64,000 nucleotides of DNA, taken from Candidatus Hydrogenedens sp. (lineage in GTDB: Bacteria > Hydrogenedentota > Hydrogenedentia > Hydrogenedentales > Hydrogenedentaceae). The stretch covers positions 96,001 through 160,000 of the forward strand of contig JBMFRC010000001.1 of the NCBI GenBank assembly GCA_049968235.1, given 5' to 3'. Every line of letters begins with the position of its first letter. The stretch's first letter is position 1. The notes beneath the pieces are model-generated. The model had not been told where the DNA came from and searched no databases. It saw only the letters and a program-made list of their open reading frames with translations. Of the stretch, positions 49,068 to 64,000 are shown one piece after another. The position numbers and the translations under genes are program-made.

Positions 49068-51724
49068 TATTTTCTATAAATTGTCCCACGGTTAAATTCT
49101 TCTTGTTCTACCTGTCCGGTTAACGCTTCTGTCCTATCTAAAGTAGGACGATAATTTTTTCGCATATCTGCCTTTGCCTTAACTTTTTTGAAAAACCCGC
49201 CCTTGAATAACTCTTGTATATTTACATCTTGATATTCTGTAACCTTATACTGTGTAACCCGCTCCATATCACTGGATTCTTTTACAATATGTGGTGTAAC
49301 CAGAACTACCATATTACGTTTTTCTCGCGATACGGATTTATTACGAAATAGGAAACCTAATAAAGGAATATCTCCCATAATTGGAACTTGTGTCCTATTC
49401 CGGTCTGCGGTATCTCTTATTAAACCGGCTAAAACTGCTGTTGAACCATCTTTTACAAGCACTTGATTTTTAAATAGAGATTTATTTGTTGTCGGACCTA
49501 AAATATTTACATCCCCTACAGATTGAGTACCTCCAGCCACTGCAGATACTTCTATCTCAATTTTCATCAAAACATTATCGCCCTCACTGATTTGAGGGGT
49601 TACCGTGAGTTTGATACCTACCTCATGTCGTTCTACACGAGTATAACCGCCCCATGTGCTTCCTATAACCTCTCCCGTCGTTGTGCGTTGAGGACTTGCT
49701 GTGCTTGTAATGAATGGGACTTCCTGACCTACGACTATGGATGCCTCTTCATTATCTACCGTAACCAAACTGGGTTGAGAAAGCACTTCTAAATCGGAAA
49801 CAGTCTCTATTGCTTGTAACAGGAGTGGGACAAAAGGAACCCGTAACCGCTGGGTCTTGCTGATTGGAATAACAATGTCGTCATATATCCCTGTTGTGAG
49901 ACCTCCTCCGGAACCTAAACTTAACGCTCCTAACATACGATTCAGTCGGCTCGGGCTGGTAATTTTATTCGCCGCATCTGCTGCAGGTTTTAAGGAATCT
50001 ACAATTTTTTGTATATTTTGTGTTCCTGTAACAGCAAATCCGGAATTTCCACTAATACTTGCGGAATCTACTTTGACCCCATAATCATTGTTCAATCGCA
50101 CGTCCATGACTACTGCATCAACAAGCACCTGTCTTTGGGGTACATCCAGACGGGCAATAAATGCTTCTAACACTTTATAATCCTGTGGGGAAGCAACAAC
50201 AAGCAGTGAATTGGTCTGGTCATATCTTGTAATTTGAACTCGCTGTTCAAACGGTTGCACATCTCCCGGAGCAGAAGACATGGTTGAAGGGGCTATTGTT
50301 CCACCAGCACCTGGCACCGCACCCCCTGGAGTTGTTCCGGCACCTGTAGGTCGTCTTGTTGAACCAGAACCACCAATGAGTGGTTGTAATGCCTGCTCTA
50401 CTTTCTCTGCATCGGCATTTAGTAGTTCATAAATATGCAAATTATTGGCTTCATAAGGAGTAGGACAGTCTAACCGTTTTATCAGGTCACGAACTTTTTC
50501 CATCATACCTTCAGTTGCAACAACGATTAACGCATTCAATCTCGTATCGGGAACCATACGAAGGACTTCCTGTCGCGAACCAATAATTTGCATGGACGGC
50601 GCACCTGGTACAGAACGTGTCGGAGGTCTTACCACAGGTTGTGGGGTCATAGGAGTTCCCGGAACTCTACCACCCGCAGTTGTGGTTTTCGTTTCGGATA
50701 AAACTTGTTCAATCTGTTGGGCTAAGGCTTCTGCACGGGTATATTCGAGCATAAATATTTCCATTTCCGTTTCATTTCCGGAAACATCTATTTCTTGTAG
50801 AAATGAAAATATGCGTTTTAGCCCATCTGCAGTGTCTGTAATAATCAATGTATTTGTAGGTGCGTAGGCAGAAATACGACATGATTTGGAACCCAATACC
50901 TGTAAAGCGGTAGATACTTCGGAGGCATCTGCATACTTTAAGGTAATAATATGAGTAGCAAATTTGTCATACCCTTCTGGAAGTTTTTCGGTTCCTCTGA
51001 TTAAGGGTGTTTTTTCAGAGGCAACAGCGTCGGGAGTTGCAATTATCTTGATTAATTTTCCATCTAGCGTCTCAACCATAGAGAAGCCTCGAGATGCCAG
51101 TATAGATTCAAGAACCTGATATGCCATTTCAGGGGGAATTTTATCATGAGTTATAACAGTAACAGTTGTCGCTCCAATGTTCGGGTCAACATCAAAGTTT
51201 CTGCCCGTTAAACGAGCAATTGCTGCTATAACATCATATAAAGGGGCATCGTGAAAATCGAAGGAAATCGGTTCGGAAGGAGTTTCACCTGTTTTGGGTC
51301 CTGTTTCTGCGGCAATACCGATAGGGGTCTTTCCCGATGTATCACCTCCCGGAGGAGTTTTCCTTGGTCCAGGAGGGAGGGGGGGGTGATTTCCTCTTCT
51401 CATTGTGGGGAAAGAAGGTATAGGTGGTCTTGAGGAACCTGGAGGGGAGACAGGTTCCGGCATTGTAATAGGAGGGCGAACTGCTTCTGGTGCGGTTTGA
51501 GGAGGCATTTCTGGAGGATTTTCTGGAACCGAAGGTGCATCCACAATCTGCGGTATTTCGATATTTGTCGGAGGAGCATCCTGCGGAACCTGCTCTACAT
51601 CCTGACCATAGCCAGAATATACAAACATATTAACAAACAGTAATAAAAAAATAATTATTCTTTTCCCAGAGAAAAAGAAACAGCGATTCTTATAGTTTGA
51701 TATAAACTCAATTGGATTTCGCAA
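49067..51724 (-). CDS. gspD: Type II secretion secretin GspD with a proline-rich N-terminal extension of about 120 aa.
   Basis: The N0 domain is FDFHDAPLYDVIAAIARLTGRNFDVDP. The secretin domain includes QRVQITRYDQTNSLLVVASPQDYKVLEAFIARLD...VLVDAVVMDV and AVLAGLIRDTADRNRTQVPIMGDIPLLGFLFRNKSVSREKRNMVVLVTPHIV. The proline-rich stretch begins PQDAPPTNIEIPQIVDAPSVPENPPEMPPQTAPEAVRPPITMPEPVSPPGSSRPPIPSFP. Confidence 0.85.
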   Translation of the reverse strand: MRNPIEFISNYKNRCFFFSGKRIIIFLLLFVNMFVYSGYGQDVEQVPQDAPPTNIEIPQIVDAPSVPENPPEMPPQTAPEAVRPPITMPEPVSPPGSSRPPIPSFPTMRRGNHPPLPPGPRKTPPGGDTSGKTPIGIAAETGPKTGETPSEPISFDFHDAPLYDVIAAIARLTGRNFDVDPNIGATTVTVITHDKIPPEMAYQVLESILASRGFSMVETLDGKLIKIIATPDAVASEKTPLIRGTEKLPEGYDKFATHIITLKYADASEVSTALQVLGSKSCRISAYAPTNTLIITDTADGLKRIFSFLQEIDVSGNETEMEIFMLEYTRAEALAQQIEQVLSETKTTTAGGRVPGTPMTPQPVVRPPTRSVPGAPSMQIIGSRQEVLRMVPDTRLNALIVVATEGMMEKVRDLIKRLDCPTPYEANNLHIYELLNADAEKVEQALQPLIGGSGSTRRPTGAGTTPGGAVPGAGGTIAPSTMSSAPGDVQPFEQRVQITRYDQTNSLLVVASPQDYKVLEAFIARLDVPQRQVLVDAVVMDVRLNNDYGVKVDSASISGNSGFAVTGTQNIQKIVDSLKPAADAANKITSPSRLNRMLGALSLGSGGGLTTGIYDDIVIPISKTQRLRVPFVPLLLQAIETVSDLEVLSQPSLVTVDNEEASIVVGQEVPFITSTASPQRTTTGEVIGSTWGGYTRVERHEVGIKLTVTPQISEGDNVLMKIEIEVSAVAGGTQSVGDVNILGPTTNKSLFKNQVLVKDGSTAVLAGLIRDTADRNRTQVPIMGDIPLLGFLFRNKSVSREKRNMVVLVTPHIVKESSDMERVTQYKVTEYQDVNIQELFKGGFFKKVKAKADMRKNYRPTLDRTEALTGQVEQEEFNRGTIYRK

Positions 51725-51768
51725 GTTTCAACTCCTAATATATAAATATTTGTTGTTCATATCTATAA

Positions 51769-52731
51769 CTAATCTTGTATTCTATAGATTATTTCCATCG
51801 GGTTTCCATTTCTAAGGATGGATACTTTAACAGAGGGAAGTGTAACATCACTGTATTTTTTTATCAAGTCTATTACCTTTTCATCACTATCAATAATATC
51901 GTCGTTTACTGCGGTAAGGACATCTCCTTCCTTAAACCCTAATTTTACTGCAATCGGAATTTCACTAATATTTTTTGCAGTAATGCCGAGTACTTTGCCT
52001 TCCGCATCTTTATACAATTCCGGCTTAACACGCGTAACCAAATCTGCATAACTTGCAAAAAAGTCCTGTACGATTTCATCTCGATTTAAATCTACTTGCT
52101 TTTTCTCAGGCTCATTCGTTTTTGCAGGTTTCGAATCAGTTTTACTGGGTGGTTTTTCCTCTTTTGCTTTTAATAATTCTAAAGATTTATCTTCTAATTT
52201 CAATCGTTCTCTTTTAGGGGGATGGGTTTTTTTATTTAACAATATCACTTCTTTAGGATATACCTCTTCTAAAACTACCTGCTCAACGACTTCCTGTCCA
52301 ATAGCAAAAGCAGCGGTAATTCTTTTGTCGGAATTTTCAATGAAAGCGGATGCAAATCGGTCTTTAGGAGACAGGGCAATGGTCCCTATTAATTTTAAGT
52401 TTAATTGAGTATCTTCAAGAGTATCCTGAGGAGACAGTTGTTCTGTTTTTTCTTCTTTTTTAGGAACTGTATCCTCTGTCCATCTACCTGCATTTCCAAA
52501 TAAACCTGATTGTGTTATTTTGTTGAAAAGACTTTTAGCATCAATATTTATTAACTCATTCTGCACAGTTCCTTCTTCCTCACCGGCTATACCTGTTTTT
52601 TTGGCTATTTTCTGGGCAGGATTGTAGGTATAAATAATAAAAAAGAAAACTCCAAGTGCAATAAGTATTGAAAAAATCAGTATGATATGAATAAGAAAAA
52701 ATAGTCTTTTAATTTCTAACGAATGAACCAT
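51769..52731 (-). CDS. gspC: GspC-like protein with an N-terminal TM helix, an HR (secretin-interacting) domain and a C-terminal PDZ-like domain.
   Basis: The TM helix is FFLIHIILIFSILIALGVFFFII. The HR-like segment is LNLKLIGTIALSPKDRFASAFIENSDKRITAAFAIGQEVVEQVVLEEVYPKEVILLN. The PDZ-like C-terminus is ITAKNISEIPIAVKLGFKEGDVLTAVNDDIIDSDEKVIDLIKKY. It is the first gene of the gspC-M array. Confidence 0.6.
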   Translation of the reverse strand: MVHSLEIKRLFFLIHIILIFSILIALGVFFFIIYTYNPAQKIAKKTGIAGEEEGTVQNELINIDAKSLFNKITQSGLFGNAGRWTEDTVPKKEEKTEQLSPQDTLEDTQLNLKLIGTIALSPKDRFASAFIENSDKRITAAFAIGQEVVEQVVLEEVYPKEVILLNKKTHPPKRERLKLEDKSLELLKAKEEKPPSKTDSKPAKTNEPEKKQVDLNRDEIVQDFFASYADLVTRVKPELYKDAEGKVLGITAKNISEIPIAVKLGFKEGDVLTAVNDDIIDSDEKVIDLIKKYSDVTLPSVKVSILRNGNPMEIIYRIQD

Positions 52732-52914: not shown

Positions 52915-55332
52915 TTATTGTTTCTTTCTCACAAGGCTTTTGAGATATAACAAATAGTCTTCAAGCGATATATTCGTATTGGTTTCATCCATTTTCTGAA
53001 CAGAAGACATGGATTGAATTGCCTTTTTATCTGTATTATAGAAAATGCTGTCATACTCACTATAGGGTTTTACAAATTGTTTGCCCGTTTGAGGATTTTC
53101 TGTAACTACAGTTACACTTCTTGTTCCTGCATATAAAGTCCATTTACTGCTTTTAGGCAAATAACGCAAATAAATAATGGCTTTGTCTCCGACTTTAAAT
53201 TCGGGCATCTCCGAGCAAACCATAGCATAGCCATTCACTCTACCCCCGGGGATGGTAAAGATTACAGAACTATTCTCGTTAACAGGTCCTTTTATTGTTT
53301 CTATCACTTTAACTTCAACATCTGTGTATATTCTCATATTTTCTGTCATATAACTGTTTAGCGAAAGGACTTCTGCATTGACTACTGCATCGGATTGGTT
53401 CGTAAGTTCGTCTGTATTAAGAAAGGCGATTCTCGCAGAAGCATTAGAAAGAAATCCAAAAATAGACACTGCAATAATAATGAAAAGTATTGTGGTTTTT
53501 GCTTTTGTTTTAACAGATTGCATTTTCTTTATCTTCCTCCATATAACAAGCAGAATCATAATTGCTATGAGGGAACTCCAGATATTATTTTTAACTAACC
53601 ATGCAAGACTATATACGGTGCCGGCAAATATATATCGCATCATTTCTGATCTTAATATTACCTTAGAAATCATCGGAGCCATTGTATAATATATATCAAC
53701 AAAGGCAATTCCCATACCTGAATTCATCAAATAATTATCTCTAAAAATTCTCAAATCGTTAGACAAAGAAATCGAACCTAATGTGCCAGTAGTCGTTGTC
53801 GTTGTAGTAGTTCCTGTTGGGACTTCAATAATATTCATAGGACAGACATCATTGGGGTCTCCAAACATAGGTTTTCGATTTGTCCTCATTTGAGGGAGTG
53901 TTTTACCTGTAGTACTACTTACAACCACATTTTTTGTAAAACTCCATACCAATCCGGTACCTGCATCTTTACTGCTTACATCCAGTACATTTTCAACTTC
54001 GTGAAACACCTCTGACATAAAGTTCGTTTGATAATCTGTATCAGCACGAGTTGTTACAGAATAACTATTGGGTCCCTGAATACTATCTACATCAGAGGGG
54101 GGTATTCCTTCTGGAGCCTGACGGTCTAATCCCGTTCCGTTCAAAGCATTTAAGGTTAATGTGTAGGAAGGGGTAAACAATTCGCCATCTTTACCGGGAA
54201 CTTCCATGGTTTTCCATAAACCGATGAGATTAAATTTACCTTGAAGTTGCTTATTAATGAGTGGCTCGTATAAACCTACCATTGTACTGAATAAAGGCAC
54301 ACGCGAGGTATTGGGATTATTATCTACATCTGCCCAGGCGACAACATGTCCACCGGGGAGTGGAATAGAAGGAATTCCAGACCCTCTTCGTGTTCTGCTT
54401 CTTGCTTCATGTTTTATATCAAAGAAATTTTCCTGAGCACCCCTTGGATAAAGCCATGAAATACCTGAAATATCATCCGGAGCAAGGTCTTTCCCGCCAT
54501 CTTCTCGTTGACCATTCGGTAGTTCTACTTCAAAATAAATAGGGAACATAGTCGGTGTTGCTCCGATATACTGATGCAGACCATCGGGCATTGTCCTCCA
54601 CACGACAGGATTTTCTATAAGGTAAGAAGGTAATTCATCCCCTTCATTTAAATAAATAGCTCTTAAATTGTTCAAGGGGGTATGGTCTAATCCTAAAAAA
54701 TGCCCCAATTCATGAACAAGTGTTCCTTTTAAATCTGCTAATGGTTCATCACCGGATTCTGAATTATATCGGTGTGCCGTTGCAGATATAACAATATCAC
54801 GGTCAACAACTGTCCCCGCAGAAATAGGGTATATCTGCCCGTTATGTTCGTATACTGTATCGGTAACTGTAAAAAGTGTGAGTGTTACTCCCAATATTCC
54901 TCCACCCACATCCACTGTTTCCGGGTCCGGTTCAACATTCTCACCGGTATCATCTGCTTCGGTAACATACATGGATATCGTGGGCAGGGAATCGGGCACT
55001 GTCAGGGAAATAGGGTCTTCGTAATAACCTATAATCCGAAAGCAGGCGTAGGAAGTTGTAACTTCCTCCCAGACCTTTAATGCTTCTTTAACTTTTTCTA
55101 TTTCATCATCGGTAAAGCCTCTTTTCCCTCTTTCTATATAAATACCGATACCTTCTCCTGTGGTTATTTTACCATCGTTGTTCGTATCAAATTCGTAGAA
55201 GGGCCATCGTGCCAATCGTAATACATTAAATGCATCAAATCCACCGGAGGGGAAAAATGCATAACTATTCCATTGGCAAATAGAAATAATTAATAATGTT
55301 AATGAATATACAAATAATAGTTGTTTTTTCAC
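52915..55332 (-). CDS. Secreted metzincin-type zinc metalloprotease (805 aa; probable GTG start). A C-terminal region contains two hydrophobic segments and a domain of about 180 aa.
   Basis: It has the signal peptide MKKQLLFVYSLTLLIISICQWNSYA and the zinc motif LVHELGHFLGLDHTP (HExxHxxGxxH, M10/serralysin-like). A Thr-rich linker (TTTTTTTTGT) follows. The C-terminal hydrophobic segments are ...IWSSLIAIMILLVIWRKIKK followed by MQSVKTKAKTTILFIIIAVSIFGFLSNASA|RIA. An AAAGGAGT Shine-Dalgarno lies 7 nt upstream of the GTG. Confidence 0.65.
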   Translation of the reverse strand: MKKQLLFVYSLTLLIISICQWNSYAFFPSGGFDAFNVLRLARWPFYEFDTNNDGKITTGEGIGIYIERGKRGFTDDEIEKVKEALKVWEEVTTSYACFRIIGYYEDPISLTVPDSLPTISMYVTEADDTGENVEPDPETVDVGGGILGVTLTLFTVTDTVYEHNGQIYPISAGTVVDRDIVISATAHRYNSESGDEPLADLKGTLVHELGHFLGLDHTPLNNLRAIYLNEGDELPSYLIENPVVWRTMPDGLHQYIGATPTMFPIYFEVELPNGQREDGGKDLAPDDISGISWLYPRGAQENFFDIKHEARSRTRRGSGIPSIPLPGGHVVAWADVDNNPNTSRVPLFSTMVGLYEPLINKQLQGKFNLIGLWKTMEVPGKDGELFTPSYTLTLNALNGTGLDRQAPEGIPPSDVDSIQGPNSYSVTTRADTDYQTNFMSEVFHEVENVLDVSSKDAGTGLVWSFTKNVVVSSTTGKTLPQMRTNRKPMFGDPNDVCPMNIIEVPTGTTTTTTTTGTLGSISLSNDLRIFRDNYLMNSGMGIAFVDIYYTMAPMISKVILRSEMMRYIFAGTVYSLAWLVKNNIWSSLIAIMILLVIWRKIKKMQSVKTKAKTTILFIIIAVSIFGFLSNASARIAFLNTDELTNQSDAVVNAEVLSLNSYMTENMRIYTDVEVKVIETIKGPVNENSSVIFTIPGGRVNGYAMVCSEMPEFKVGDKAIIYLRYLPKSSKWTLYAGTRSVTVVTENPQTGKQFVKPYSEYDSIFYNTDKKAIQSMSSVQKMDETNTNISLEDYLLYLKSLVRKKQ

Positions 55333-55398: not shown

Positions 55399-58300
55399 TT
55401 ATGTTGTCTGTTTTTTCTTTGCAGACAGGAGAAACAGCAAAACTGCAATTACCAGACCTATATCAAAGGCATAAGCACTGAAACTTGATTGTTGAGTATC
55501 TTGTCTTTCAGCACAACCAAACATATAAAAACGTTTTTTAGGTGTCTGGGCATCATTTGCATATTCGAAACCTCCTACGAGCGTTTTTTCTGTCCCCTGG
55601 TCTATATTTTTCACAGTAACATCCAGAGATCCTACTGTTGGAATACCGCCCAATGGGAAAGTTATCAGGATGGATGTCCCGTCTGCTGATACAGATTGGA
55701 CAGGCATTAATGTATTTCCGAAATATACCTGTATATTTTCAATCGTTGAGAAATTGGATCCTTGTATGGTTACCGGAAATTCTTTTGATGTACCTTTGTT
55801 CGGATTTATGGAATTGATAATAGGTATCCGTCCCACAGGCTTCGATGTAAGTGTAAATAAATCGGTCCGTGAGGCTTCATCTCCGTTAGAAGTGTTCCGT
55901 ACCAATAAAACTATAGGCTCCATAGGAACAACTCCGGGCATTGTACTAACGGCTATAGTTATGCTGGTATCCGTTGCCTGAATAACACGAACTTGATAAC
56001 CGGATAAACGCACTACAGGGTTGTTTCCAAAATTCCTTCCATATATAACCAATGTAATTTCCTGCCCTTCAAGGGTCTGTATGGGTAATTCAGAGATAGA
56101 TGTGGATTCTATTACCAGTGAAGATGGGGCTATGATTCTATTTATAGAATTAATTACACCGGTTCTCCGTTTCTTGGTGCAATGGGAACGAACCCAGTTT
56201 ACACCCGAATTATCGGCTTTTGCTCCTGCTTTTTTCCCATCCATATAATATCGAACAGGAGGCTCTTTGAAATAGGTAATGAATCCCAGTCCTCTAACGC
56301 CCCATGGAAATTCTCTAAATTTACGGAAATCATTTCTTTGCTCACCTGACAGACGAGCCCAGGTATCGGGGTCAGGTTCTGTTGGTGTATTAGGTCCCCA
56401 GTTAACCACTCCAATTCTGAAATTCACACCGGTTCTCATTTTATCTGAGGCACGTAATATAACAAAGAAATCGGGACCATAAAAAGGATTCTTGTTATTT
56501 GAACCAAACGATGTAGGTATCCATTGACGATTACGAGATTGTTGCACACGAGGAATAGGCACATCATCTGTACCCGGACTGGAAAACACAAATTTAACCT
56601 GGGTGGCTTCACCTGTTTGACCGATATAATAAGGTGTTGCATCTAAGGGTATTGGAATATCTATGTCTGCATCAAAGATGCCATTCCTGTTTCTTGGGTC
56701 AGCGTCATTATCTCGATATAAAGCAATACCACTAATCTGTGGGTCAATATGAAGAGGTAACAAATCATTCAATGGATTAAAGTTCGCATTTGTACCTTCA
56801 TCATAAAATTCCAATGTAACTTCTTCTAAGAAACTGGGATTGCGTTCAATCCGCCAGGAACCATTGCGTGGAGTCCCGCTCAGTAAATACACCTGATTCG
56901 TTGTATTCCCCACAATTTCATAAGATTCAAAAGCAGAATCTATCAAGAAATCTCCAATAAGTGAGTTCGGTTCAAAAGTCACACCGGATACTGTAAATGT
57001 TTTTTCAGAACCTACACCATTTGTTCCTTGATAAAGACTATCTTCGGGTCTGTTCGTTGAAATATCAAATCCCATTACACAAAAGGAGGGACCTCCGGGA
57101 ACAATTGCTTGTTGTTGACTTGTAAAGTCATATATTTGCACGGGTATATTTGTCTCAAGCATATCGTTCCCGTAGAAGTCCTGGACAGGGTCTTCTTCCG
57201 GACTTGATTTAATATATGCAGTGGAACTAGTATTAACCTGTGGGAAGAATTGAATACCTGCTTTTTTCTCCGAATCGCTTCTTCCGGGTAGTGTTGCTGG
57301 TATTACCGCTCTGAAGGATTGGAATCGTTTCCCTTTATCATTCAGTCGAACAGTAATGAAGAGGTCATCTCCGGGATTATTTCCGGTTTCATTCGTTATT
57401 TGTTTCTCTAAGGATTGATTTGTGGTATTTGTCTCTTCGCTCGATTTCTCTTTTATATTCTTTTCAAATATGACATCGCTGAAATCTATATTTCCACATT
57501 CTATTGGAACAGTACCAAAAAGGAAATTCATAAAATCATCCGTAGGTAATCGCCACTTTTCTTTTGGATACATGGTAAGAACCCATGCATAATCTCGCTG
57601 GTCGATTAGACCATTACCATCCATATCATCCGGAGAACCATCTCCATCAATATCAATAGGTTCAGGCCAAGAACTCCATTGTAAATTATTCAATGGGACA
57701 GGCTTATCTCCTATATTTGGCATTGGCAAATCCCAGTAGGTTGCCAATAGTTTGGGTTCAAAGAAAATTCCATTCTGGTCGGTATCTTCCCAAAGCAAGA
57801 CACCCGAGTCGTAACTCTTACCATCCGGGTCCAGTGGCATAAGTAAATCCGGAGAGAAATCAGGTCCCCAGAACGCAACAACAATTTTTGCTACAGATGG
57901 GGCTTCCTGCCCTTCATTGTTTACGACATAATCACCCGAACCTACCAAATTAATACCTAACATAGCGGTATGTTCCGAGTTAATATCTGTTTTTTGTGTA
58001 AGTAATCTTGCTCGATTAAACTCCGAAGCCCACTGACTTGCCCGCGGATATTCATTAGGACCTATATTGCGAGACCATGTAGTATAATCCGGTAAGGCAG
58101 GTTGGTCTAAGGGATTTACATACGCAGAGGAACGCGTGTCCGGACCCAAAATATTCACATGGTCAAACGGAACTGTCTCATAAGCATATTGCCCTCTACT
58201 ATGAGTATAGTCAAAACTAACGGTAAATGTGTTATTATCTGTAATAGAATAAGTAAATCCACCAAATTCACGCCATCTTGTTACACCTACCGAATGTAAA

Positions 58301-61300
58301 TTCAAGAATTGTGTCCTTATCTTTCCTTCGGGGTCCATCCACTTATCAAAATCTTTTGGATAATCGTATAATCCGACGGAATAGCCAAGACAATTTCCTA
58401 AATTAATAGAACCGGAACCATAGAATATATCTGATTCAAATTTATAAGGGGAATCGGATGTATAAGTTAACACTAAGTCATGGACATCCAACCCTACTTT
58501 CATAGGTTTTGTAGATTTTTCATTTACTGTTCGTTGATTCCACCACGGTTCTTGTTGTCCCCATCTCAAATCTGATTGCCAGGGAGGACCTCCCCCATCC
58601 AAAAGTCCGCCTAATGGAGGAATCTGGGAATCTACATAAATACCTCCTGTAGGTTTACCATTATTATCAACCCGTCTTGGCTCTATAAAGACGCGGAAAT
58701 CTGCACCCATCATAACACCATTACCATCAGGTACGGTCTGAGAAACATCCTTAAATCCACTGTCTGTTCTTATTACAACGAAGTAATCACTCGCATATTC
58801 ACTTCCTGTAGCCACACCAACATAATTATCCGGTATCGGCTCAACAAAACCGGAGACATCGTTATCACTGGGAGTAACATATCTCCTTCGTCCATAGAAG
58901 AAACGAAGATTTATCTTCCACCATGGGTCTCCTCCTCCCGGTGGGAATGGTATGTATTCCCAATTGAGTAGTTGACCTGTAGGCAAAATAAAACCTTCAG
59001 ACAGATTAATTCCGATTACCGTCTCGGGTAATAATGGATAGTCACCGTTTAACTGGACTCCTTGTCCATCAGGAAGTGGTGTCGGTGGGTCAAATTTACC
59101 GTTATTATTTGTATCATGCCACACCCAAACACCATTAAAAACAATATCCTGGAATAACACCTTGTCACTATTTATCAAAAGTCCATTTATTTGAGTAGAA
59201 ACTTTATCCAAAGATTCACGAGGGTCAAAACCTCCATTGCCGGGAGGACCGTATGGGTCTGCTCCAATATCTGTAAAAATAACATTTACCTCTCGAAGTT
59301 GTGACCATATCCTCTTCTCTGCGGTATAACGCGGTCCTACTAACGTGTCATATCCATCTGCATGCACAGATTTTGTAGAATGGACATTTATTCCTATCAC
59401 AGGTTTCCATGTATCCATAGCAACCAGGCGACGGAACGACAATAGTTCTCCGGCATACATATATAACAGTTGGTTAAACTTTGACCACTTGGGGCGTGTA
59501 TGTTCTGCAAGAGGTGTATATAACCGCGTCGGATAATTCCATGCATCAAAACCACTATACTCCCATTGCTCAGGATTGATAATACCGTTCAAATCCCAAA
59601 CAGTAAAACTGGCAGAATAGCCTGTGTCGGATATCATTTTTTCTGGTTTTTTCGCATCATAGAAGTTTGGGTCATACTCATCTATTGCATCTCCATCTGT
59701 ATTTCTTGGAAAGATACCATTAAGTTTTATCATCTCCGCACGAAGAACATCACAAGCCATAGTAATCTGGCTTCGCCATGTGGCAGATGTTCGAACGGCG
59801 ACAATATAGGAATTTCCATCAAATCCTTCATCTTGATTGGGAGCCGTTACAACAGGATAATCCGGTTTATCTGGTGTTCCACTCCCAATAAAGTTCAGCC
59901 TATAAGTAATACCCTCCGGAGAATATGGATTTTGCGTCAGAATTTGTGCTAATGGCGTTCCATCCGAATTCCACTTAAATAACAATTCATCATAATAGGG
60001 GTCTAATTGATTATTATATTCTTCTTTCTTTGAATAGTTTTCCCTGAATAAGGCAAATTCTAATAAATCAGAAATATTGGGACCTCCCTGATTCCCATAA
60101 TTTAACTCACCTTGACTTCTTTTATCCGCTCGAATTCGATATACTAACGATTTCAAAACTCGTGGAGCCGGATTTTCCGGGTCATAGCCCATTGTAAAAT
60201 TAAATAATGGAACCCAGTCTGTCAAGGGCAAAAGTGCTTCTTTATCTTTGATTATAGATTGGACAGAGAATTTGGCACTTGGCTCCTCTTGATTTTCACC
60301 TTCTGTTGTTCCTTCTGTTTGCCCTTCTCCTTCTGTCGTTGATGGACAACCAATACATGGACCTACAGTTATATAATTAGGTATCAGATAACATAGTTTC
60401 ATGGTCTCATTAGTATTTACATTTTTAAATGTTACTTCAAGAGTGACAGAATAGAATCCTTCTTTAGTGTATCTATGTATCGGGTTCTGTTGTGTGGATT
60501 CTATAGCAGGGACATTATCTCCAAAACTCCAGGACCATGCAGTAACTTTCCAGATATCTGTTCCGACGGACATATCCCTAAACTGCACATCCAGGCCCGG
60601 TTCTTTTTCACCCATAGCATCCGGCGTTATGTATCCTGAATTGGGTTGGGCAGTGAAGCTAACATAGGGAGCACTTAATATTTCTATATAATCTCTTTTA
60701 ATTTTAGATGCACTTAATCCATTCTTATCTTTTATAACGACGCTGACGGTATATGTTCCTGCCTGGGAATATGTATGTGTTGGATTTCTATCTGTGGATT
60801 GTGTACCATCTCCGAAATCCCACTGAACGGAAGCCAGCGTTATTCCACTACCCGGAACTAATGTAAATTTAATTTGTCCTCCGGGTATCTGTCTCTGTCT
60901 ATCCGCCGTAAAATCAACGGTTGGTACCTGCAAAGCCACTATTGTCTTGGTACGACCGGAAGCAACCGGATTTGTGCGAATCCAGTTTAATCCCAATCTG
61001 TCCGATTGAGCCTGGCTCATGTCCACTTCCGCTCGTGCTGTCCATTTGCGGAGTCTATCATTATATGCCCAATAACGATAAATAAGTGGGTCCTTAAAGA
61101 AACTAATAAACCCTAATGCACGATTTCCCCATGGGAATTCGGAATATAGGTAGAACAATCCATCGTTAATATCACCGGCACCCGGATATATACGAACAAA
61201 ATTATCCGGGTCGGGTTCCGTAGGGGTATCTCCACCAAACGAGACTATTGCTGCCTGGAATGCATCTCCTGCACTTATTGCAGATGATGTTCGGATTACC

Positions 61301-64000
61301 ACAAAGAAGTCGGGACCGTATCCATTTTCACTGGGACAATCTCCAAAGCATACCGGAATAGGTTGCCGGAGCCGAGGCTGAGAAATATACGGTGTTCCTC
61401 CTTGTGTTGGGTCTCGTCCAACACTATTATCGGTACCGGGTGAAGAGAACACAAAGCGAACCTGATAACGTGGGTCTCCCGGACGGGAATACCACACTGG
61501 TGAATTATCCAATCGTAATGGCAAATCAATATAATCAACAGTTCCATCATTATTAATAATCGGTGGGTCAAATACTCCATTTGTATTTCTCGGGTCCCAA
61601 TCATTGTCCCGCCAGATTGAAACACCACTTTCTTTCCCATTTGCAGGGTCTTCTTCATTTAACGGTAATAAATCGTTATATGGGTCAAATCCACGAACTG
61701 TTGTTTGCGTATTCGCATTATAAAATTCAACAATTACCTGCTCTAAGAAGGTAGGGTCTTTAACCACATACCAGGGACTACCATTCTTCGGAGTTCCTGC
61801 TCTTAGCCGTAAAGTCCTTCCCTGAGCACCTGTAATTTCAAAGGCTTCCACCCGTTTATTTACTTCCTGGTCCGCCTGACCATAAGCGATCAGCCACATA
61901 CCCACTATATTCTGTGTCCATGCACCATTAGAATAGAAATCTTTAAGGCTCGTTTCAGGAATAATAATATCTCGAGCATCAGGACTGAATGCCTTATCTC
62001 CAGCAGATGCACCGGTACCATTTCCGTAAGCAATTAAATTTTCAACACGGTTCATTGATGCGTCAATACCTAAAATAGCAATAGGCTGTCCACCGGGAAT
62101 TATAACCGGTGTTGTAATACCACTGGTTGAAGGAGGAAGTAATGCATCCGTCATATCTACAATTCGTGACGGTACACTCACCTGCAACATATCATGTCCA
62201 TAGAAATCCTGCAAACCACCTTCTTCCGGATTTGTCTTAACAACAGCTCCTCGCGATGTTAAACCACCCTGAGAAAACACAACCCCTGCGAATTGTGCTG
62301 TTGTAGGAGTTCTATCCGGTAACCGTGCAGGAACTAAACAACGAAACTCCTCAAAAGCACTTACTGTATCGGATGTTCGGATTACCACAAATAAATCATC
62401 TCCCCTATGTCCTCCTGCTGTAAGTGCCTTTGCATCCTTTTCCATCGGGACAACATTTGCAACACCTTCATCATCATATTCTGGAGATACTATATCCAAA
62501 AGCAAAGATTTCTTTGCCGAAGATGTTATCTTTTCTGTATCTTTAACATCTTTTATTATTTCCGGAGATAACGGAAGTGATAAATTGCTATTTGCTTCTA
62601 AACTCTTTGCAGTTATAGGTGGATTGGCTCCTCCGGAGCGTATATCGGATTGAGGCACTGTCCATGGCTGTGCAGGTGTTAATTTTAATACCCATGCAAG
62701 GTCTTTTAATCCATCCCATGCTTTCTTCTGGGCAGAAGTAAGTTGCGGTCTTTCCAGGTCAGATAAATCAACATTTCCATCTGTTACAATACCGTCACCA
62801 CTCAAATCATCTGGAATATTATCTCCATCTAAATCTACAGGTTCCGGTTTAATACCCCATTCTAAGGAGCCCGGAACCAGAGGGACGATTCTATCCGTAA
62901 AGACAGGAACAGATACAGTATCTAAAAACACAGGACCTGTAAACACCCCATCCGCATTTGTATCCTCATAAAGCAAGACACCTGAAGATGGGAGTGTTCC
63001 ACCTGTGCTATCCAATGGAGTTAAGTCAGATGGGTCAAATTCCGGTCCCCAGAACGCAACATATATGCTATTTAAAGCTACGGGACCTGAACGATTTACT
63101 ACGGGGTCATCTGCACCGGATAAGTTAAATCCTAACACTGCTACGGGTTGCGATTTATATTCTACCTTCTGTCTCAAAATTCGAGCGGAACGGGACTCAC
63201 CATTGGGTCCTGAACTTACTGTGTTATTGCCCCATCCTGCTGGCCAATCTGCCATTTGCGGATAACGATTGCGAACCATTGTGTTTTGTGTAACTAACCA
63301 GGGACCCCGTTCTACCGCATTGGCTCGTCCTCCTCTAACACCATAAGGATACTGAGAGACCGATAATTTGTTCCCATTCATCATATAAGGAGATATATAG
63401 GCTGAATGTCCATTCTCAAGTTCTAATATATTCCCACTGTTACTCTTTATATAGTATCTACCTCCATTATTATCTATAAACCACCAGCCCGATAAATCTA
63501 CTCCTGCGAAATTACCATCTAATAATTCTGCATAATAGACATCATCCTTGTATCCTGCCCAGACACCTTGCCATGTTTCTATAACATTAGGGTCTTCGCT
63601 TGGGTCGAAATGATAGTATTCAAGGTTATCCCCAAGTGTCCCTTCATCTGCATATACAATACAACGCGAACCAAAGTTTACAAGACCTAATCTCATGGGC
63701 CATGTATAATAATCCGGTAAAGTTGGTTGAATAAATGGTTTAGGATATGCTGTACTTCGTGGAGTTAAAGAACGAGGTAATAATGGGTCATCAAAGGTAG
63801 GTTCAAAAGGTACGGTTTCAAAAGCATACTGAAACGATGTTAACTCATCTAAATTAGGAACAGGCTGACCTGTCCAGAAAATCGCCTCTGAATAGTCCGG
63901 TAAGATACCCGGATTATATAAATATCCTAGCGCAGAACTGGAATTTAATAAAGGATTCGTATTGGGGTCAAGAATCAGGTCAGAAGGAGGTGCTAATCCC
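55399..64000 (-). CDS. Giant surface protein, 5'-truncated at the window edge and longer than 2,860 aa. It contains PKD domains, IPT/TIG domains, internal super-repeats and a C-terminal TM helix plus Lys-rich tail.
   Basis: Manual translation shows the reading frame stays open from the annotated Met (63696) to the window end at 64000, where the protein reads ...NPGILPDYSEAIFWTGQPVPNLDELTSFQYAFETVPFEPTFDDPLLPRSLTPRSTAYPKPFIQPTLPDYYTWPMRLGLVNF.... The PKD domains are WDFGDGTQSTDRNPTHTYSQAGTYTVSVVIKDKNG and WSFGDNVPAIESTQQNPIHRYTKEGFYSVTLEVTF. IPT-like modules lie near the C-terminus. The C-terminal tail is FGCAERQDTQQSSFSAYAFDIGLVIAVLLFLLSAKKKQTT*. Confidence 0.75.
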   Translation of the reverse strand, partial: GLAPPSDLILDPNTNPLLNSSSALGYLYNPGILPDYSEAIFWTGQPVPNLDELTSFQYAFETVPFEPTFDDPLLPRSLTPRSTAYPKPFIQPTLPDYYTWPMRLGLVNFGSRCIVYADEGTLGDNLEYYHFDPSEDPNVIETWQGVWAGYKDDVYYAELLDGNFAGVDLSGWWFIDNNGGRYYIKSNSGNILELENGHSAYISPYMMNGNKLSVSQYPYGVRGGRANAVERGPWLVTQNTMVRNRYPQMADWPAGWGNNTVSSGPNGESRSARILRQKVEYKSQPVAVLGFNLSGADDPVVNRSGPVALNSIYVAFWGPEFDPSDLTPLDSTGGTLPSSGVLLYEDTNADGVFTGPVFLDTVSVPVFTDRIVPLVPGSLEWGIKPEPVDLDGDNIPDDLSGDGIVTDGNVDLSDLERPQLTSAQKKAWDGLKDLAWVLKLTPAQPWTVPQSDIRSGGANPPITAKSLEANSNLSLPLSPEIIKDVKDTEKITSSAKKSLLLDIVSPEYDDEGVANVVPMEKDAKALTAGGHRGDDLFVVIRTSDTVSAFEEFRCLVPARLPDRTPTTAQFAGVVFSQGGLTSRGAVVKTNPEEGGLQDFYGHDMLQVSVPSRIVDMTDALLPPSTSGITTPVIIPGGQPIAILGIDASMNRVENLIAYGNGTGASAGDKAFSPDARDIIIPETSLKDFYSNGAWTQNIVGMWLIAYGQADQEVNKRVEAFEITGAQGRTLRLRAGTPKNGSPWYVVKDPTFLEQVIVEFYNANTQTTVRGFDPYNDLLPLNEEDPANGKESGVSIWRDNDWDPRNTNGVFDPPIINNDGTVDYIDLPLRLDNSPVWYSRPGDPRYQVRFVFSSPGTDNSVGRDPTQGGTPYISQPRLRQPIPVCFGDCPSENGYGPDFFVVIRTSSAISAGDAFQAAIVSFGGDTPTEPDPDNFVRIYPGAGDINDGLFYLYSEFPWGNRALGFISFFKDPLIYRYWAYNDRLRKWTARAEVDMSQAQSDRLGLNWIRTNPVASGRTKTIVALQVPTVDFTADRQRQIPGGQIKFTLVPGSGITLASVQWDFGDGTQSTDRNPTHTYSQAGTYTVSVVIKDKNGLSASKIKRDYIEILSAPYVSFTAQPNSGYITPDAMGEKEPGLDVQFRDMSVGTDIWKVTAWSWSFGDNVPAIESTQQNPIHRYTKEGFYSVTLEVTFKNVNTNETMKLCYLIPNYITVGPCIGCPSTTEGEGQTEGTTEGENQEEPSAKFSVQSIIKDKEALLPLTDWVPLFNFTMGYDPENPAPRVLKSLVYRIRADKRSQGELNYGNQGGPNISDLLEFALFRENYSKKEEYNNQLDPYYDELLFKWNSDGTPLAQILTQNPYSPEGITYRLNFIGSGTPDKPDYPVVTAPNQDEGFDGNSYIVAVRTSATWRSQITMACDVLRAEMIKLNGIFPRNTDGDAIDEYDPNFYDAKKPEKMISDTGYSASFTVWDLNGIINPEQWEYSGFDAWNYPTRLYTPLAEHTRPKWSKFNQLLYMYAGELLSFRRLVAMDTWKPVIGINVHSTKSVHADGYDTLVGPRYTAEKRIWSQLREVNVIFTDIGADPYGPPGNGGFDPRESLDKVSTQINGLLINSDKVLFQDIVFNGVWVWHDTNNNGKFDPPTPLPDGQGVQLNGDYPLLPETVIGINLSEGFILPTGQLLNWEYIPFPPGGGDPWWKINLRFFYGRRRYVTPSDNDVSGFVEPIPDNYVGVATGSEYASDYFVVIRTDSGFKDVSQTVPDGNGVMMGADFRVFIEPRRVDNNGKPTGGIYVDSQIPPLGGLLDGGGPPWQSDLRWGQQEPWWNQRTVNEKSTKPMKVGLDVHDLVLTYTSDSPYKFESDIFYGSGSINLGNCLGYSVGLYDYPKDFDKWMDPEGKIRTQFLNLHSVGVTRWREFGGFTYSITDNNTFTVSFDYTHSRGQYAYETVPFDHVNILGPDTRSSAYVNPLDQPALPDYTTWSRNIGPNEYPRASQWASEFNRARLLTQKTDINSEHTAMLGINLVGSGDYVVNNEGQEAPSVAKIVVAFWGPDFSPDLLMPLDPDGKSYDSGVLLWEDTDQNGIFFEPKLLATYWDLPMPNIGDKPVPLNNLQWSSWPEPIDIDGDGSPDDMDGNGLIDQRDYAWVLTMYPKEKWRLPTDDFMNFLFGTVPIECGNIDFSDVIFEKNIKEKSSEETNTTNQSLEKQITNETGNNPGDDLFITVRLNDKGKRFQSFRAVIPATLPGRSDSEKKAGIQFFPQVNTSSTAYIKSSPEEDPVQDFYGNDMLETNIPVQIYDFTSQQQAIVPGGPSFCVMGFDISTNRPEDSLYQGTNGVGSEKTFTVSGVTFEPNSLIGDFLIDSAFESYEIVGNTTNQVYLLSGTPRNGSWRIERNPSFLEEVTLEFYDEGTNANFNPLNDLLPLHIDPQISGIALYRDNDADPRNRNGIFDADIDIPIPLDATPYYIGQTGEATQVKFVFSSPGTDDVPIPRVQQSRNRQWIPTSFGSNNKNPFYGPDFFVILRASDKMRTGVNFRIGVVNWGPNTPTEPDPDTWARLSGEQRNDFRKFREFPWGVRGLGFITYFKEPPVRYYMDGKKAGAKADNSGVNWVRSHCTKKRRTGVINSINRIIAPSSLVIESTSISELPIQTLEGQEITLVIYGRNFGNNPVVRLSGYQVRVIQATDTSITIAVSTMPGVVPMEPIVLLVRNTSNGDEASRTDLFTLTSKPVGRIPIINSINPNKGTSKEFPVTIQGSNFSTIENIQVYFGNTLMPVQSVSADGTSILITFPLGGIPTVGSLDVTVKNIDQGTEKTLVGGFEYANDAQTPKKRFYMFGCAERQDTQQSSFSAYAFDIGLVIAVLLFLLSAKKKQTT

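What the first reader, a model, noticed from the sequence alone, without database searches (positions are those of the whole stretch)
55399..64000. Giant PKD/IPT surface protein built from super-repeats of about 1,000 aa, with an unclassified C-terminal TM plus KKK sorting-like tail, immediately upstream of the T2SS
The protein, more than 2,860 aa and 5'-truncated by the window, shows an internal duplication. For example, ...VAFWGPEFDPSDLTPLDSTGG...VLLYEDTNADGVF...PEPVDLDGDNIPDDLSGDGIVTDG... is matched later by ...VAFWGPDFSPDLLMPLDPDGK...VLLWEDTDQNGIF...PEPIDIDGDGSPDDMDGNGLIDQ.... A recurring module, 'D(D/Y)(F/L)FVVIRT(S/D)', appears at least six times: DDLFVVIRTSDT, DDLFITVRLNDK, PDFFVVIRTSSA, PDFFVILRASDK, SDYFVVIRTDSG and NSYIVAVRTSAT. 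This may define an undescribed domain. The C-terminus ends in a hydrophobic helix plus a basic tail (DIGLVIAVLLFLLSAKKKQTT). That is the architecture of sortase, exosortase and rhombosortase sorting signals. The preceding motif (MFGCAERQ) is none of the known LPXTG, PEP or GlyGly signatures, and no sortase-like gene is in the window. Its placement directly upstream of a metzincin gene and gspC, with a 66-nt gap to the protease gene, suggests it is T2SS-associated cargo or a surface partner.
Basis: seen in the sequence. Interest (0 to 1): 0.7.

Follow-up and report, generated by a model that had tools for sequence, protein, structure and literature searches.

The report
Giant surface protein, new cysteine sorting tail
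The gene at the head of a type II secretion operon in an uncultured Hydrogenedentota bacterium encodes a roughly 3,800-residue chain of beta-sandwich domains, and it ends in an uncatalogued cysteine-containing C-terminal sorting tag that unrelated surface proteins of the same genomes also carry.

Summary
The ORF (minus strand, 55399 to beyond 64000) is open to the window edge. A 92%-identical homologue is 3,843 aa, so about 977 aa are missing.

The layout is [B-A]-PKD-PKD-[B'-A']-TIG-TIG-tail, with units of about 1,400-1,750 aa.

The tail is not a plain anchor. In about 45 orthologues it reads [FL][FL][GSA]-C-[AGS]-x(11-16)-D-TM-R/K, with invariant Cys and Asp. A profile of it finds 38 proteins among 1.84 billion, always at the extreme C-terminus. 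About 20 are unrelated surface proteins, some from the same MAGs, and several carry a choice-of-anchor D domain just before it. Other orthologues carry a CFI-box-CTERM domain at the same position.

The gene is almost always followed by a metzincin-like partner (54 of 57 loci). gspC-gspF follow in 40 of 57.

Best reading: a MYXO-CTERM-like, Cys-dependent tag that directs T2SS-dependent surface display. The sorting enzyme is unidentified.

The parts
55399..64000 (-). Giant protein gene, 5'-truncated by the window edge. It has 2,866 codons here and about 3,840 in full-length orthologues.
   Evidence: Open frame. P0001 is 92% identical over 3,843 aa.
60925..63834 (-). Repeat unit A (aa 56-1025). 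It contains two FVVIRT-type domains.
   Evidence: Self-BLAST against A'. phmmer across the family.
60385..60942 (-). Two PKD domains (aa about 1020-1205) that separate the two mega-repeats.
   Evidence: Pfam PKD_4 at 8.4e-26 and PKD at 7.3e-20. PDB sequence hits to ColH PKD domains.
58195..60387 (-). Repeat unit B' (aa 1205-1935). Its paralogue B lies beyond the window edge. This is the most conserved part of the family, with motifs such as PFPPGGGDPWWK, TDIGADPxGPPGNGGFNP and GADFRAFIEPRR.
   Evidence: Self-BLAST of P0001. phmmer. Invariant columns. AF2 model with pLDDT 60.8, where aa 40-270 form a confident beta-sandwich.
56125..58197 (-). Repeat unit A' (aa 1935-2625), the paralogue of A.
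62374..62394 (-). FVVIRT strand 1 (LFVVIRT, aa 536-542), in domain A1.
   Evidence: hhalign A1~A'1 100%, A1~A2 97%, A1~A'2 95%.
61288..61308 (-). FVVIRT strand 2 (FFVVIRT, aa 898-904), in domain A2.
   Evidence: hhalign A2~B'2 98% over 162 columns, A2~B2 96%.
59788..59808 (-). Look-alike strand (YIVAVRT, aa 1398-1404) in domain B'1. It is not demonstrably homologous to the other five.
   Evidence: hhalign probability below 7% against every other module type.
58765..58785 (-). FVVIRT strand 4 (YFVVIRT, aa 1739-1745), in domain B'2.
57343..57363 (-). FVVIRT strand 5 (LFITVRL, aa 2213-2219), in domain A'1.
   Evidence: It is strand E279-283 of the A' model.
56449..56469 (-). FVVIRT strand 6 (FFVILRA, aa 2511-2517), in domain A'2.
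   Evidence: It is strand E577-581 of the A' model.
55585..56082 (-). Two TIG/IPT domains (aa about 2640-2805). The second also matches the 'choice-of-anchor Z' repeat.
   Evidence: Pfam TIG at 1.2e-9, two stretches. NCBIfam NF058597 scores 32.9 bits against a cut-off of 30.
55402..55533 (-). C-terminal tripartite tail (aa 2823-2866). It comprises MFG-C(2829)-A, a 16-aa spacer, D2846, a TM helix (2847-2860) and KKK (2861-2863).
   Evidence: Sequence. Motif statistics. Tail HMM score of 40.9 bits. Exhaustive profile search.
52915..55332 (-). Conserved partner gene (805 aa). It comprises a signal peptide, an EF-hand-like loop, a metzincin domain (HELGHFLGLDH, TPTMFP), an internal CFI-box domain (aa 526-572), a TM helix, a basic loop, a second TM helix and a C-terminal domain of about 190 aa.
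   Evidence: NF041770 scores 40.4 bits against a cut-off of 40. It is adjacent to the giant gene in 54 of 57 loci and fused to it in the other three.
40019..52731 (-). T2SS operon: gspC (51769-52731), gspD (49067-51724), gspE (47328-49067), gspF (46042-47280), gspG (45643-46038), pseudopilins (43373-45597), gspK (42090-43364), a gspL/PilM-N-like gene (40549-42108) and a small ORF with no Pfam match (40019-40531).
   Evidence: Pfam. The same order occurs in orthologous loci.

Best explanation
The gene encodes a giant cell-envelope protein of Candidatus Hydrogenedentota, about 400 kDa when complete. It is a chain of beta-sandwich modules and looks like an adhesin or surface-scaffold protein, not an enzyme.

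Proposed pathway:
1. The protein is exported by Sec through an N-terminal signal. This signal lies outside the window and is seen only in orthologues.
2. It is first held in the inner membrane by the C-terminal helix, with the KKK cluster in the cytoplasm.
3. The conserved motif [FL][FL][GSA]-C-[AGS]-x(11-16)-D just outside the membrane is a lineage-specific, MYXO-CTERM-like sorting tag. The Cys is modified, probably lipidated, and the helix is cut off by a housekeeping sorting protease that is still unidentified. By analogy this would be a CPBP-type myxosortase.
4. The T2SS encoded immediately downstream carries the folded protein across the outer membrane, where it stays attached to the cell surface.
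5. The always-adjacent partner carries the related CFI-box tag and acts as its companion. This parallels the TraA/TraB gene pair of Myxococcus.

Shown here: the architecture, the conservation of the motif, the portability of the tag, the exchange of tag type between orthologues, and the synteny.

Inferred only: Cys modification, cleavage, the identity of the protease, T2SS dependence and surface location.
For: (a) Tag conservation. In 45 aligned tails only Cys and Asp are invariant. Position -2 is F or L in 32 of 40 tails, position -1 is G, S or A in 38 of 40, and position +1 is A, G or S in 39 of 40. The spacer from Cys to the helix is 12-15 aa in 39 of 40.

(b) Portability. A 42-position profile of the tail was searched against all 1.84 billion representatives. 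It gave 38 proteins at E <= 1e-3, every match within a few residues of the C-terminus. About 20 share nothing else with the giant family. They include small proteins of 209-217 aa with signal peptides, Ig-like or LapB-repeat proteins of 634-1,524 aa, and a 2,809-aa RHS/YD protein.

(c) Same genomes. P0097 is on WGMK01000003.1 and the giant orthologue L022 is on WGMK01000027.1. P0072 is on CAYMLC010000002.1 and L072 is on CAYMLC010000027.1. Neighbouring genes in L081 and L084 carry the tail too.

(e) Tag swapping. Of 69 complete C-termini, 41 have this tail and 25 have a CFI-box-CTERM domain whose Cys sits at the same place after GFxYxN.

(f) Topology. In three species the giant ORF runs in frame through the tag, the TM helix and the basic loop into the partner's signal peptide. 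This is the arrangement described for the internal MYXO-CTERM of MXAN_5598 (PMC11980579).

(g) T2SS link. gspC-D-E-F follow directly in 40 of 57 loci across the phylum. MYXO-CTERM and GlyGly-CTERM proteins need a T2SS, and Synerg-CTERM co-occurs with one (Haft 2023; Guo et al. 2025).

(i) N-termini. 36 of 38 full-length relatives begin with a hydrophobic stretch of 12 or more uncharged residues, usually preceded by basic residues.
Against: No sorting protease was found. There is no CPBP (PF02517), rhomboid, sortase or exosortase gene in the window. None appears in the called genes of ten related loci. No recurrent extra neighbour exists.

No NCBIfam CTERM model reaches its cut-off. The best is MYXO-CTERM at 16.8 bits against 20. 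The TraA tag does not score above shuffles against the tail HMM. The relationship to MYXO-CTERM is therefore architectural, not demonstrated homology.

The window's own clade has an atypical tail, with a 16-aa spacer and FD instead of GD.

In 17 of 57 loci the T2SS is not adjacent.

Whether a protein of about 400 kDa can pass a secretin is untested. The N-terminal hydrophobic stretch is long and lacks an obvious AXA cleavage site, so it could be an uncleaved anchor.

The taxonomy of most unrelated tail carriers was not established.
Confidence: 0.6

Rival explanations
1. The tail is a permanent stop-transfer anchor. The giant protein stays tethered to the inner membrane and fills or spans the periplasm, for example as a structural accessory of the T2SS. 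The conserved Cys and Asp would serve contacts with the partner or the machine, not sorting.
For: No sorting enzyme was identified. The gene sits at the head of the T2SS operon like a component. The partner also has membrane helices.
Against: The same tail sits on about 20 unrelated secreted proteins, including proteins of about 210 aa and RHS/YD proteins. Several have choice-of-anchor D domains before it. Orthologues replace it with a different C-terminal sorting-type domain at the same residue. In 17 of 57 loci no T2SS gene is adjacent.
Confidence: 0.15
2. The tag is a real, processed sorting signal, but delivery does not use the neighbouring T2SS. The protein is retained as an inner- or outer-membrane lipoprotein-like molecule by another route, and the synteny with gsp genes reflects co-regulation only.
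For: Other tail-bearing genes are not next to complete T2SS operons. 17 of 57 giant loci lack adjacent gsp genes. The motif resembles a lipobox.
Against: T2SS adjacency holds across orthologues that are only 38-50% identical and for both tag types: 19 Cys-tail and 19 CFI-box loci. Every Cys-type or GlyGly-type tag studied so far is tied to a T2SS.
Confidence: 0.15
3. The adjacent metzincin is the dedicated processing protease. It would cut the giant protein near its Cys motif, as dedicated sorting enzymes sit next to single-client tags such as JDVT-CTERM.
For: The partner is adjacent in 54 of 57 loci and fused in three. The window copy has intact HExxHxxGxxH and Met-turn-like motifs. Haft 2023 found dedicated enzymes adjacent in 16 of 17 JDVT loci.
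Against: The zinc-binding motif is lost in 27 of 56 species, including many whose giant protein has the Cys tail. The tag has many clients per genome, which argues for a housekeeping enzyme. The catalytic domain is soluble and periplasmic, not intramembrane.
Confidence: 0.07

Closest known systems
MYXO-CTERM (TIGR03901) proteins such as TraA of Myxococcus xanthus, with myxosortase MrtX and the T2SS
   Same: Both have a tripartite C-terminal tag: a short motif with an invariant Cys preceded by F and G/A (TraA has GAFCCG), a spacer of about 13 residues, a TM helix and an Arg/Lys cluster. Both are present on many unrelated surface proteins per genome. The carrier is a large adhesin-like protein with an adjacent partner gene (TraA/TraB). 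Fusions with the tag internal exist (MXAN_5598). Both are linked to a T2SS (PMC11980579).
   Different: The organism is in a different phylum. The HMM score is below its cut-off, at best 16.8 bits against 20. TraA's tag does not score against this tail's HMM. There is an invariant Asp at the helix boundary and never a GCGC doublet in the giant family. No myxosortase was identified. Here the T2SS operon is physically adjacent to the client gene.
JDVT-CTERM (NF033191) with MrtJ
   Same: Both have a single invariant Cys followed at a fixed distance by a conserved Asp-containing motif next to or within the TM helix.
   Different: JDVT-CTERM has DP nine residues after the Cys, inside the helix. It usually occurs on one client per genome, with a CPBP protease gene adjacent in 16 of 17 cases. 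Here the motif is G-D, 12-17 residues after the Cys and before the helix. There are several clients per genome and no adjacent protease. The HMM scores 9.7 bits against a cut-off of 27.
CFI-box-CTERM (NCBIfam NF041770), an orphan C-terminal domain with no published sorting enzyme
   Same: It occupies exactly the same position in 25 of 69 orthologues, beginning with a Cys right after GFxYxN..P. It is also present in the partner protein of this window, at 40.4 bits against a cut-off of 40. It too ends in a TM helix and an Arg cluster.
   Different: The CFI-box has a conserved stretch of about 45 aa (CFIATAAYG...FRDxxLL...YYxxSP...) between the Cys and the helix. The window's tail lacks this stretch and gives no NF041770 hit.
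GlyGly-CTERM with rhombosortase (VesB of Vibrio cholerae)
   Same: A C-terminal tripartite tag and T2SS-dependent surface retention of a secreted protein (Haft 2023 introduction). Some tail carriers have the HYDIN/VesB-like Ig domain.
   Different: There is no GlyGly motif and no rhomboid gene. The signature here is Cys-based.

Membership tests
MYXO-CTERM (TIGR03901.2) | HMM score at or above the curated cut-off of 20 bits | tested here: not met
   The window tail gives no hit. The best of ten family tails scores 12.5 bits. The best unrelated carrier, P0097, scores 16.8 bits.
MYXO-CTERM (TIGR03901.2) | Tripartite architecture at the extreme C-terminus with an invariant Cys in the signature motif | tested here: met
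   Cys is invariant in 45 tails, followed by a TM helix and an R/K cluster. All 38 profile hits end within a few residues of the C-terminus.
MYXO-CTERM (TIGR03901.2) | Several unrelated client proteins in one genome | tested here: met
   MAG WGMK01 carries giant orthologue L022, P0097 and the 328-aa neighbour in L081. MAG CAYMLC01 carries L072 and P0072. Full per-genome counts could not be made.
MYXO-CTERM (TIGR03901.2) | Cognate CPBP-family myxosortase (MrtX, MrtC or MrtP) in the genome | not testable with these tools
   No PF02517 gene is in the window or among the called genes of ten related loci. Whole genomes could not be scanned.
MYXO-CTERM (TIGR03901.2) | Restricted to Myxococcota (curated range, Haft 2023) | tested here: not met
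   Related loci are titled Candidatus Hydrogenedentota, Hydrogenedentes or Hydrogenedentales.
JDVT-CTERM (NF033191) | HMM at or above 27 bits, with a DP motif nine residues after the single Cys | tested here: not met
   The best score is 9.7 bits. The conserved Asp lies 12-17 residues after the Cys and is preceded by G, not followed by P.
JDVT-CTERM (NF033191) | Dedicated CPBP protease gene adjacent to the client gene | tested here: not met
   The adjacent conserved gene is the metzincin/CFI-box partner. No recurrent membrane protease is present.
CFI-box-CTERM (NF041770) | HMM at or above 40 bits, with a CFIATAAYG box and an FRDxxLL...YYxxSP stretch before the helix | tested here: not met
   The window giant protein gives no hit. 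The partner gene meets it at 40.4 bits. Orthologues P0039, P0040 and P0045-52 carry the full CFIATAAYG/FRD/YY..SP motifs; their truncated 70-aa tails scored 31.3-38.3 bits, just below the cut-off.
LPXTG/sortase, PEP-CTERM/exosortase, GlyGly-CTERM/rhombosortase | Signature motif directly before the helix, with the cognate enzyme gene present | tested here: not met
   No NCBIfam hit to any of these models on the whole protein or its last 83 aa at E <= 1. No such enzyme is in the window.
PKD / IPT-TIG domain surface proteins | Pfam PKD and TIG domains above the gathering score | tested here: met
   PKD_4 scores 90.3 bits, PKD 71.2 bits and TIG 38.4 bits. They cover only four domains of the protein.
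Choice-of-anchor Z repeat (NF058597) | HMM at or above 30 bits on the domain preceding a C-terminal anchor | tested here: met
   32.9 bits at aa 2725-2805, two stretches.
T2SS-dependent surface-anchored substrate | Sec signal, a folded periplasmic intermediate, and export that requires GspD/GspE | not testable with these tools
   Only indirect evidence is available. Orthologues have N-terminal hydrophobic signals. gspC-F are adjacent in 40 of 57 loci.

The most novel reading that the evidence does not exclude
The giant protein, its pseudo-metzincin partner and the adjacent T2SS would form a dedicated surface apparatus specific to Hydrogenedentota. In long forms it would also include the upstream GldG-like ABC transporter. 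Two interchangeable Cys-first tags would feed this apparatus: the short tail and the orphan CFI-box-CTERM. The tags would also work as internal 'cut here' junctions followed by a second signal peptide, so that one precursor yields several surface proteins. This would give CFI-box-CTERM its first pathway. It might also reveal a sorting enzyme outside the CPBP family, or an adhesion or gliding machine built on a T2SS.
Probability: 0.2. Interest if true: 0.75.

Novelty: new variant of a known kind. Interest (0 to 1): 0.6.

Why it matters
Cys-containing C-terminal sorting tags were tied to processing enzymes only recently. Myxosortase was predicted in 2023 and shown experimentally in 2025, and the tags are catalogued for only a few lineages.

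This finding adds a fifth, uncatalogued tag from an uncultured phylum. Its largest client is physically wired to a T2SS operon, which gives direct genomic support to the idea that such tags are T2SS addresses.

Orthologues swap this tag for CFI-box-CTERM at the same residue. That makes the orphan CFI-box domain testable as a related, T2SS-linked sorting signal.

The finding also defines a phylum-wide family of about 400-kDa proteins. About 85% of their sequence is unannotated, including an undescribed repeated beta-sandwich domain. It improves the current annotation, which is only 'PKD domain-containing protein' or 'hypothetical protein'.

Tried and rejected
- **Tail profile against the 5.8-billion-protein word-indexed database.** The E-value ceiling of 10 returned only a fragment of P0021. 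This was a dead end. The exhaustive representative search succeeded instead.
- **First hand-in of the tail alignment to the representative search.** It was rebuilt from window and P-protein tails only.
- **Scan of all ORFs in about 1.5 Mb of orthologous loci for the tail on unrelated proteins.** None were found, because the sample repeats the same neighbourhood.
- **Search for a sorting enzyme.** I used Pfam on window ORFs, precomputed Pfam in ten loci, and clustering of recurrent neighbours. Nothing was found.
- **Homology of the tail to TraA's MYXO-CTERM.** It does not score above shuffles.
- **Partner as the obligate protease.** Rejected because HExxH is lost in 27 of 56 species.
- **Relationship to the two other giant ORFs in the window.** None was found.
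- **Other attempts.** The afdb50 fold library was unavailable. Literature searches for CFI-box, CFIATAAYG, Hydrogenedentes plus T2SS and Hydrogenedentes plus CTERM found nothing relevant.
Full report
**1. What is in the window**

On the minus strand the frame is open from 63999 down to the stop codon at 55399-55401. It has 2,866 codons and no internal stop. The ORF listing starts the ORF at the first ATG, at 63696, but nothing closes the frame upstream. GC content is 0.40-0.42, like the surroundings.

Pfam finds only two PKD domains (aa about 1020-1205) and two TIG domains (aa about 2640-2805). NCBIfam adds a 'choice-of-anchor Z' repeat on the last TIG, at 32.9 bits against a cut-off of 30. 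The remaining 85% or so has no match. PDB sequence search hits only PKD domains.

Downstream on the same strand, after a 66-nt gap, lies an 805-aa protein. Then come GspC, D, E, F and G, pseudopilins, GspK and a PilM/GspL-like protein.

**2. The family and the missing N-terminus**

A search of 5.8 billion proteins returns about 52 relatives and otherwise only PKD-only hits. Most relatives are 3,650-4,380 aa long. Named ones are 'PKD domain-containing protein' or 'hypothetical protein' from Candidatus Hydrogenedentes.

P0001 is 92% identical and 3,843 aa long. The window protein equals its residues 980-3842, so about 977 codons lie beyond the window edge.

The 73 loci kept are nearly all titled Hydrogenedentota, Hydrogenedentes or Hydrogenedentales. 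Some MAGs are labelled 'uncultured Nitrospirales' and one 'Bathyarchaeia', presumably mislabelled or mis-binned.

36 of 38 full-length members begin with a hydrophobic stretch of 12 or more uncharged residues, usually after basic residues. This is compatible with a Sec signal or a signal anchor. I could not run SignalP.

**3. The repeats**

Window aa 57-1024 match aa 1937-2620 at 30-42% identity, with E-values down to 1e-36.

In full-length P0001 the duplicated unit is larger: aa 251-2001 match aa 2217-3597. The architecture is signal-(PKD-like)-[B-A]-PKD-PKD-[B'-A']-TIG-TIG-tail.

The window holds A, the PKD pair, B', A', the TIG pair and the tail. The partner of B' lies outside the window. 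Every family member shows both copies, so the duplication predates the family's radiation. Shorter relatives of 1,650-2,100 aa have a single [B-A] unit.

**4. The FVVIRT module**

The full protein has eight.

Profile-profile comparison of family sub-alignments gives these results:
- The four positional pairs created by the mega-duplication match at 100% probability.
- Cross-homology links B2, A1 and A2: B2~A2 96%, A2~B'2 98% over 162 columns, B'2~A'2 95%, A1~A2 97%, A1~A'2 95%.
- The B1/B'1 strand (YIVAVRT) is not significantly related to any of them (below 7%).

There is therefore one repeated domain of about 170-260 aa, three copies per mega-repeat and five in the window. It begins with a strand such as ITVAFWGP or VIVEFY. 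Next come FDPxDLxPLD and SGVxLYxDxDxxNGxFD, an Asp/Asn-rich loop of the calcium-binding type (my inference). It closes with DFFVVxRTS.

The AF2 model of A' is all-beta, with pLDDT 75.6 and pTM 0.78. The model of B' is weaker at pLDDT 60.8, though aa 40-270 form a confident sandwich.

The module is thus an undescribed sequence family with a common fold class. At the sensitivity it was not seen outside this protein family.

**5. The tail**

I compared 40 non-redundant short tails and aligned 45.
- Cys and Asp are the only invariant residues.
- The consensus is [FL][FL][GSA]-C-[AGS]-x(11-14)-G-D, then a helix of about 18 residues, then an R/K cluster.
- The Cys-to-helix spacer is 12-15 aa in 39 of 40 tails.
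- The window's low-GC clade has a longer spacer (16 aa) and FD in place of GD.

No NCBIfam C-terminal sorting model reaches its cut-off. MYXO-CTERM scores 12.5 and 16.8 bits against 20, and JDVT-CTERM 9.7 against 27.

The decisive test was an exhaustive HMMER search with a 42-position tail profile against 1.84 billion representatives. It found 38 proteins at E <= 1e-3, and every match lay at the extreme C-terminus.

About 20 of these have no other similarity to the giant family:
- proteins of 209 and 217 aa with signal peptides (P0097, P0069);
- surface proteins of 634-1,524 aa with LapB repeats, OmpL47-type barrels and Bact_surface_Ig-like domains;
- a 2,809-aa RHS/YD protein.

Five of eight tested carry a choice-of-anchor D domain immediately before the tail; only P0088 passes the cut-off, at 47.2 bits against 45. 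That domain family is defined by sitting next to alternative C-terminal anchors.

Two carriers are in the same MAGs as a giant orthologue:
- P0097 and L022 are both in WGMK01, Candidatus Hydrogenedens sp. RI_113.
- P0072 and L072 are both in CAYMLC01.

Genes adjacent to P0097 and to P0079 carry the tail as well.

**6. Tag swapping and fusions**

Among 69 complete C-termini from related loci, the tails fall into three groups:
- 41 have the short Cys tail.
- 25 have a full CFI-box-CTERM domain: CFIATAAYG...FRDxxLL...YYxxSP..., then a helix and RRR. Its Cys sits at the same place after the last TIG (GFxYxNxP...C).
- 3 are in-frame fusions.

In the fusions the giant ORF continues through the tag, the helix and the basic loop into the partner's signal peptide and the whole partner (L056, L063, L071). 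That topology requires the tail helix to cross the membrane with its C-terminus inside.

The arrangement mirrors the internal MYXO-CTERM of the fused adhesin MXAN_5598. Guo et al. compare that fusion to the TraA/TraB gene pair (PMC11980579).

One MAG (CAZPMT01) carries three paralogues. One has the CFI-box with partner and T2SS; two have the Cys tail and no partner.

**7. Neighbourhood**

I used phmmer with the window's proteins on 57 loci that have a complete giant C-terminus and at least 4.5 kb downstream. One contig is counted twice, as L004 and L067. The partner follows in 54 and is fused in the other three. gspC and usually gspD-E-F follow in 40: 19 Cys-tail loci, 19 CFI-box loci and 2 others.

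Long forms have an ABC ATPase, a permease, a GldG-like ABC_transp_aux protein and a DUF4340 protein directly upstream in 19 of 26 loci. Short forms have them in 2 of 24.

The partner has these parts:
- a signal peptide followed by a conserved AFFPxGG start;
- an EF-hand-like DTNNDG loop;
- a metzincin signature (HExxHxxGxxH) and a TPTMFP Met-turn-like motif;
- an internal CFI-box domain (NF041770, 40.4 bits against a cut-off of 40);
- a helix and a basic loop;
- a second helix that resembles a signal peptide;
- a C-terminal domain of about 190 aa.

The zinc-binding motif is intact in only 29 of 56 species, with no relation to the tag type of the giant protein. The partner's conserved role is therefore not catalysis.

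No CPBP, rhomboid, sortase or exosortase gene is in the window or in the ten loci with precomputed Pfam. No other recurrent neighbour exists.

**8. Mechanism**

The literature gives a precise precedent. [quoted passage not shown] They are predicted to be cut by CPBP-family myxosortases (Haft 2023), and for MrtX this has been shown experimentally.

The working model has five steps: Sec export, anchoring by the C-terminal helix, Cys lipidation by an unknown enzyme, cleavage distal to the Cys, and T2SS-dependent transfer to the cell surface (Guo, Haft & Wall 2025). GlyGly-CTERM proteins also need a T2SS, and Synerg-CTERM co-occurs with one.

The present tail has the same architecture. TraA has GAFCCG, about 13 residues, a helix and RPRRPAR. 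It also has the same multi-client distribution, and its largest client sits at the head of a T2SS operon.

I therefore propose the same pathway, at confidence 0.6. The architecture, conservation, portability, tag swapping, fusion topology and synteny are shown. Modification, cleavage, the identity of the protease, T2SS dependence and surface location are inferred.

Rivals:
- a permanent inner-membrane anchor (0.15);
- a processed tag delivered independently of the T2SS (0.15);
- the partner as the dedicated protease (0.07).

**9. Novelty and verdict**

No paper in the searchable library mentions this family, the CFI-box or a Hydrogenedentota sorting tag. The kind of system is known, so this is not categorically new.

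It is a new variant for these reasons:
- The tag is missed by all curated models.
- It is interchangeable with an orphan tag at the same residue.
- It sits on a giant, mostly unannotated protein family conserved across the phylum.
- That family is coupled to a partner gene and a T2SS.

Interest is 0.6.

Noticed in passing
window 52915-55332 (-): The 805-aa neighbour looks like two secreted proteins joined by a sorting tag. The first is a signal peptide, a metzincin domain, a CFI-box (NF041770, aa 526-572), a TM helix and an R/K loop. Then come a second signal-peptide-like helix and a 190-aa domain. The sequence pattern of that last domain (..YTDVxVxVxExIKG....GG..) reminds me of TIMP/OB-like inhibitor domains; this is from memory and untested. 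The zinc-binding motif is lost in 27 of 56 species.
   Followed up: partly
L056:6902-20998, L063:9012-15464, L071:2-14515: In three species the giant gene and its partner form one ORF. It reads through the Cys or CFI tag, the TM helix and the basic loop into the partner's signal peptide. This is a natural fusion with the tag internal.
   Followed up: partly
window 7420-39805 (-): A second pilus- or T2SS-like cluster is present. It has three T2SSE-family ATPases, a T2SSF-family (GspF/PilC-type) protein, N-methyl pseudopilins, a PilM-like protein and a 1,085-aa TPR-secretin. It also has two further giant ORFs of 2,536 aa (21923-29533, prepilin-like N-terminus, only a weak LTD hit) and 1,973 aa (15998-21919, no Pfam hit). 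Neither is related to the giant protein studied here.
   Followed up: partly
L001:3765-8901, L003:4288-9398, L007:4070-9196 (upstream of the giant gene, outside the window): Long forms of the giant gene are preceded in 19 of 26 loci by an ABC ATPase, an ABC-2 permease, a GldG-like ABC_transp_aux protein and a DUF4340 protein. In Bacteroidota this gene set is associated with gliding (from memory). Short forms lack it.
   Followed up: partly
L081:8817-10630 and L084:6022-10910: Tail-bearing genes occur in adjacent pairs. In Candidatus Hydrogenedens sp. RI_113 the pair encodes 328-aa and 209-aa proteins, both with GFCGCAP...GD-TM. In a JGI contig the pair encodes 705-aa and 849-aa Flg_new_2 proteins.
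   Followed up: partly
L009, L011, L013, L018, L019 and others; L041 (record titles): Many MAGs that carry this Hydrogenedentota-specific locus are deposited as 'uncultured Nitrospirales' or 'Nitrospiraceae', and one as 'Candidatus Bathyarchaeia archaeon'. These are probably taxonomic mislabels or binning contamination.
   Followed up: no
[not shown]
   Followed up: no
window 14525-15922 (-) and L081:20344-20630: A protein with PEGA repeats and an FGE-sulfatase domain appears both in the window and near the small tail-bearing genes of another Hydrogenedens MAG.
   Followed up: no
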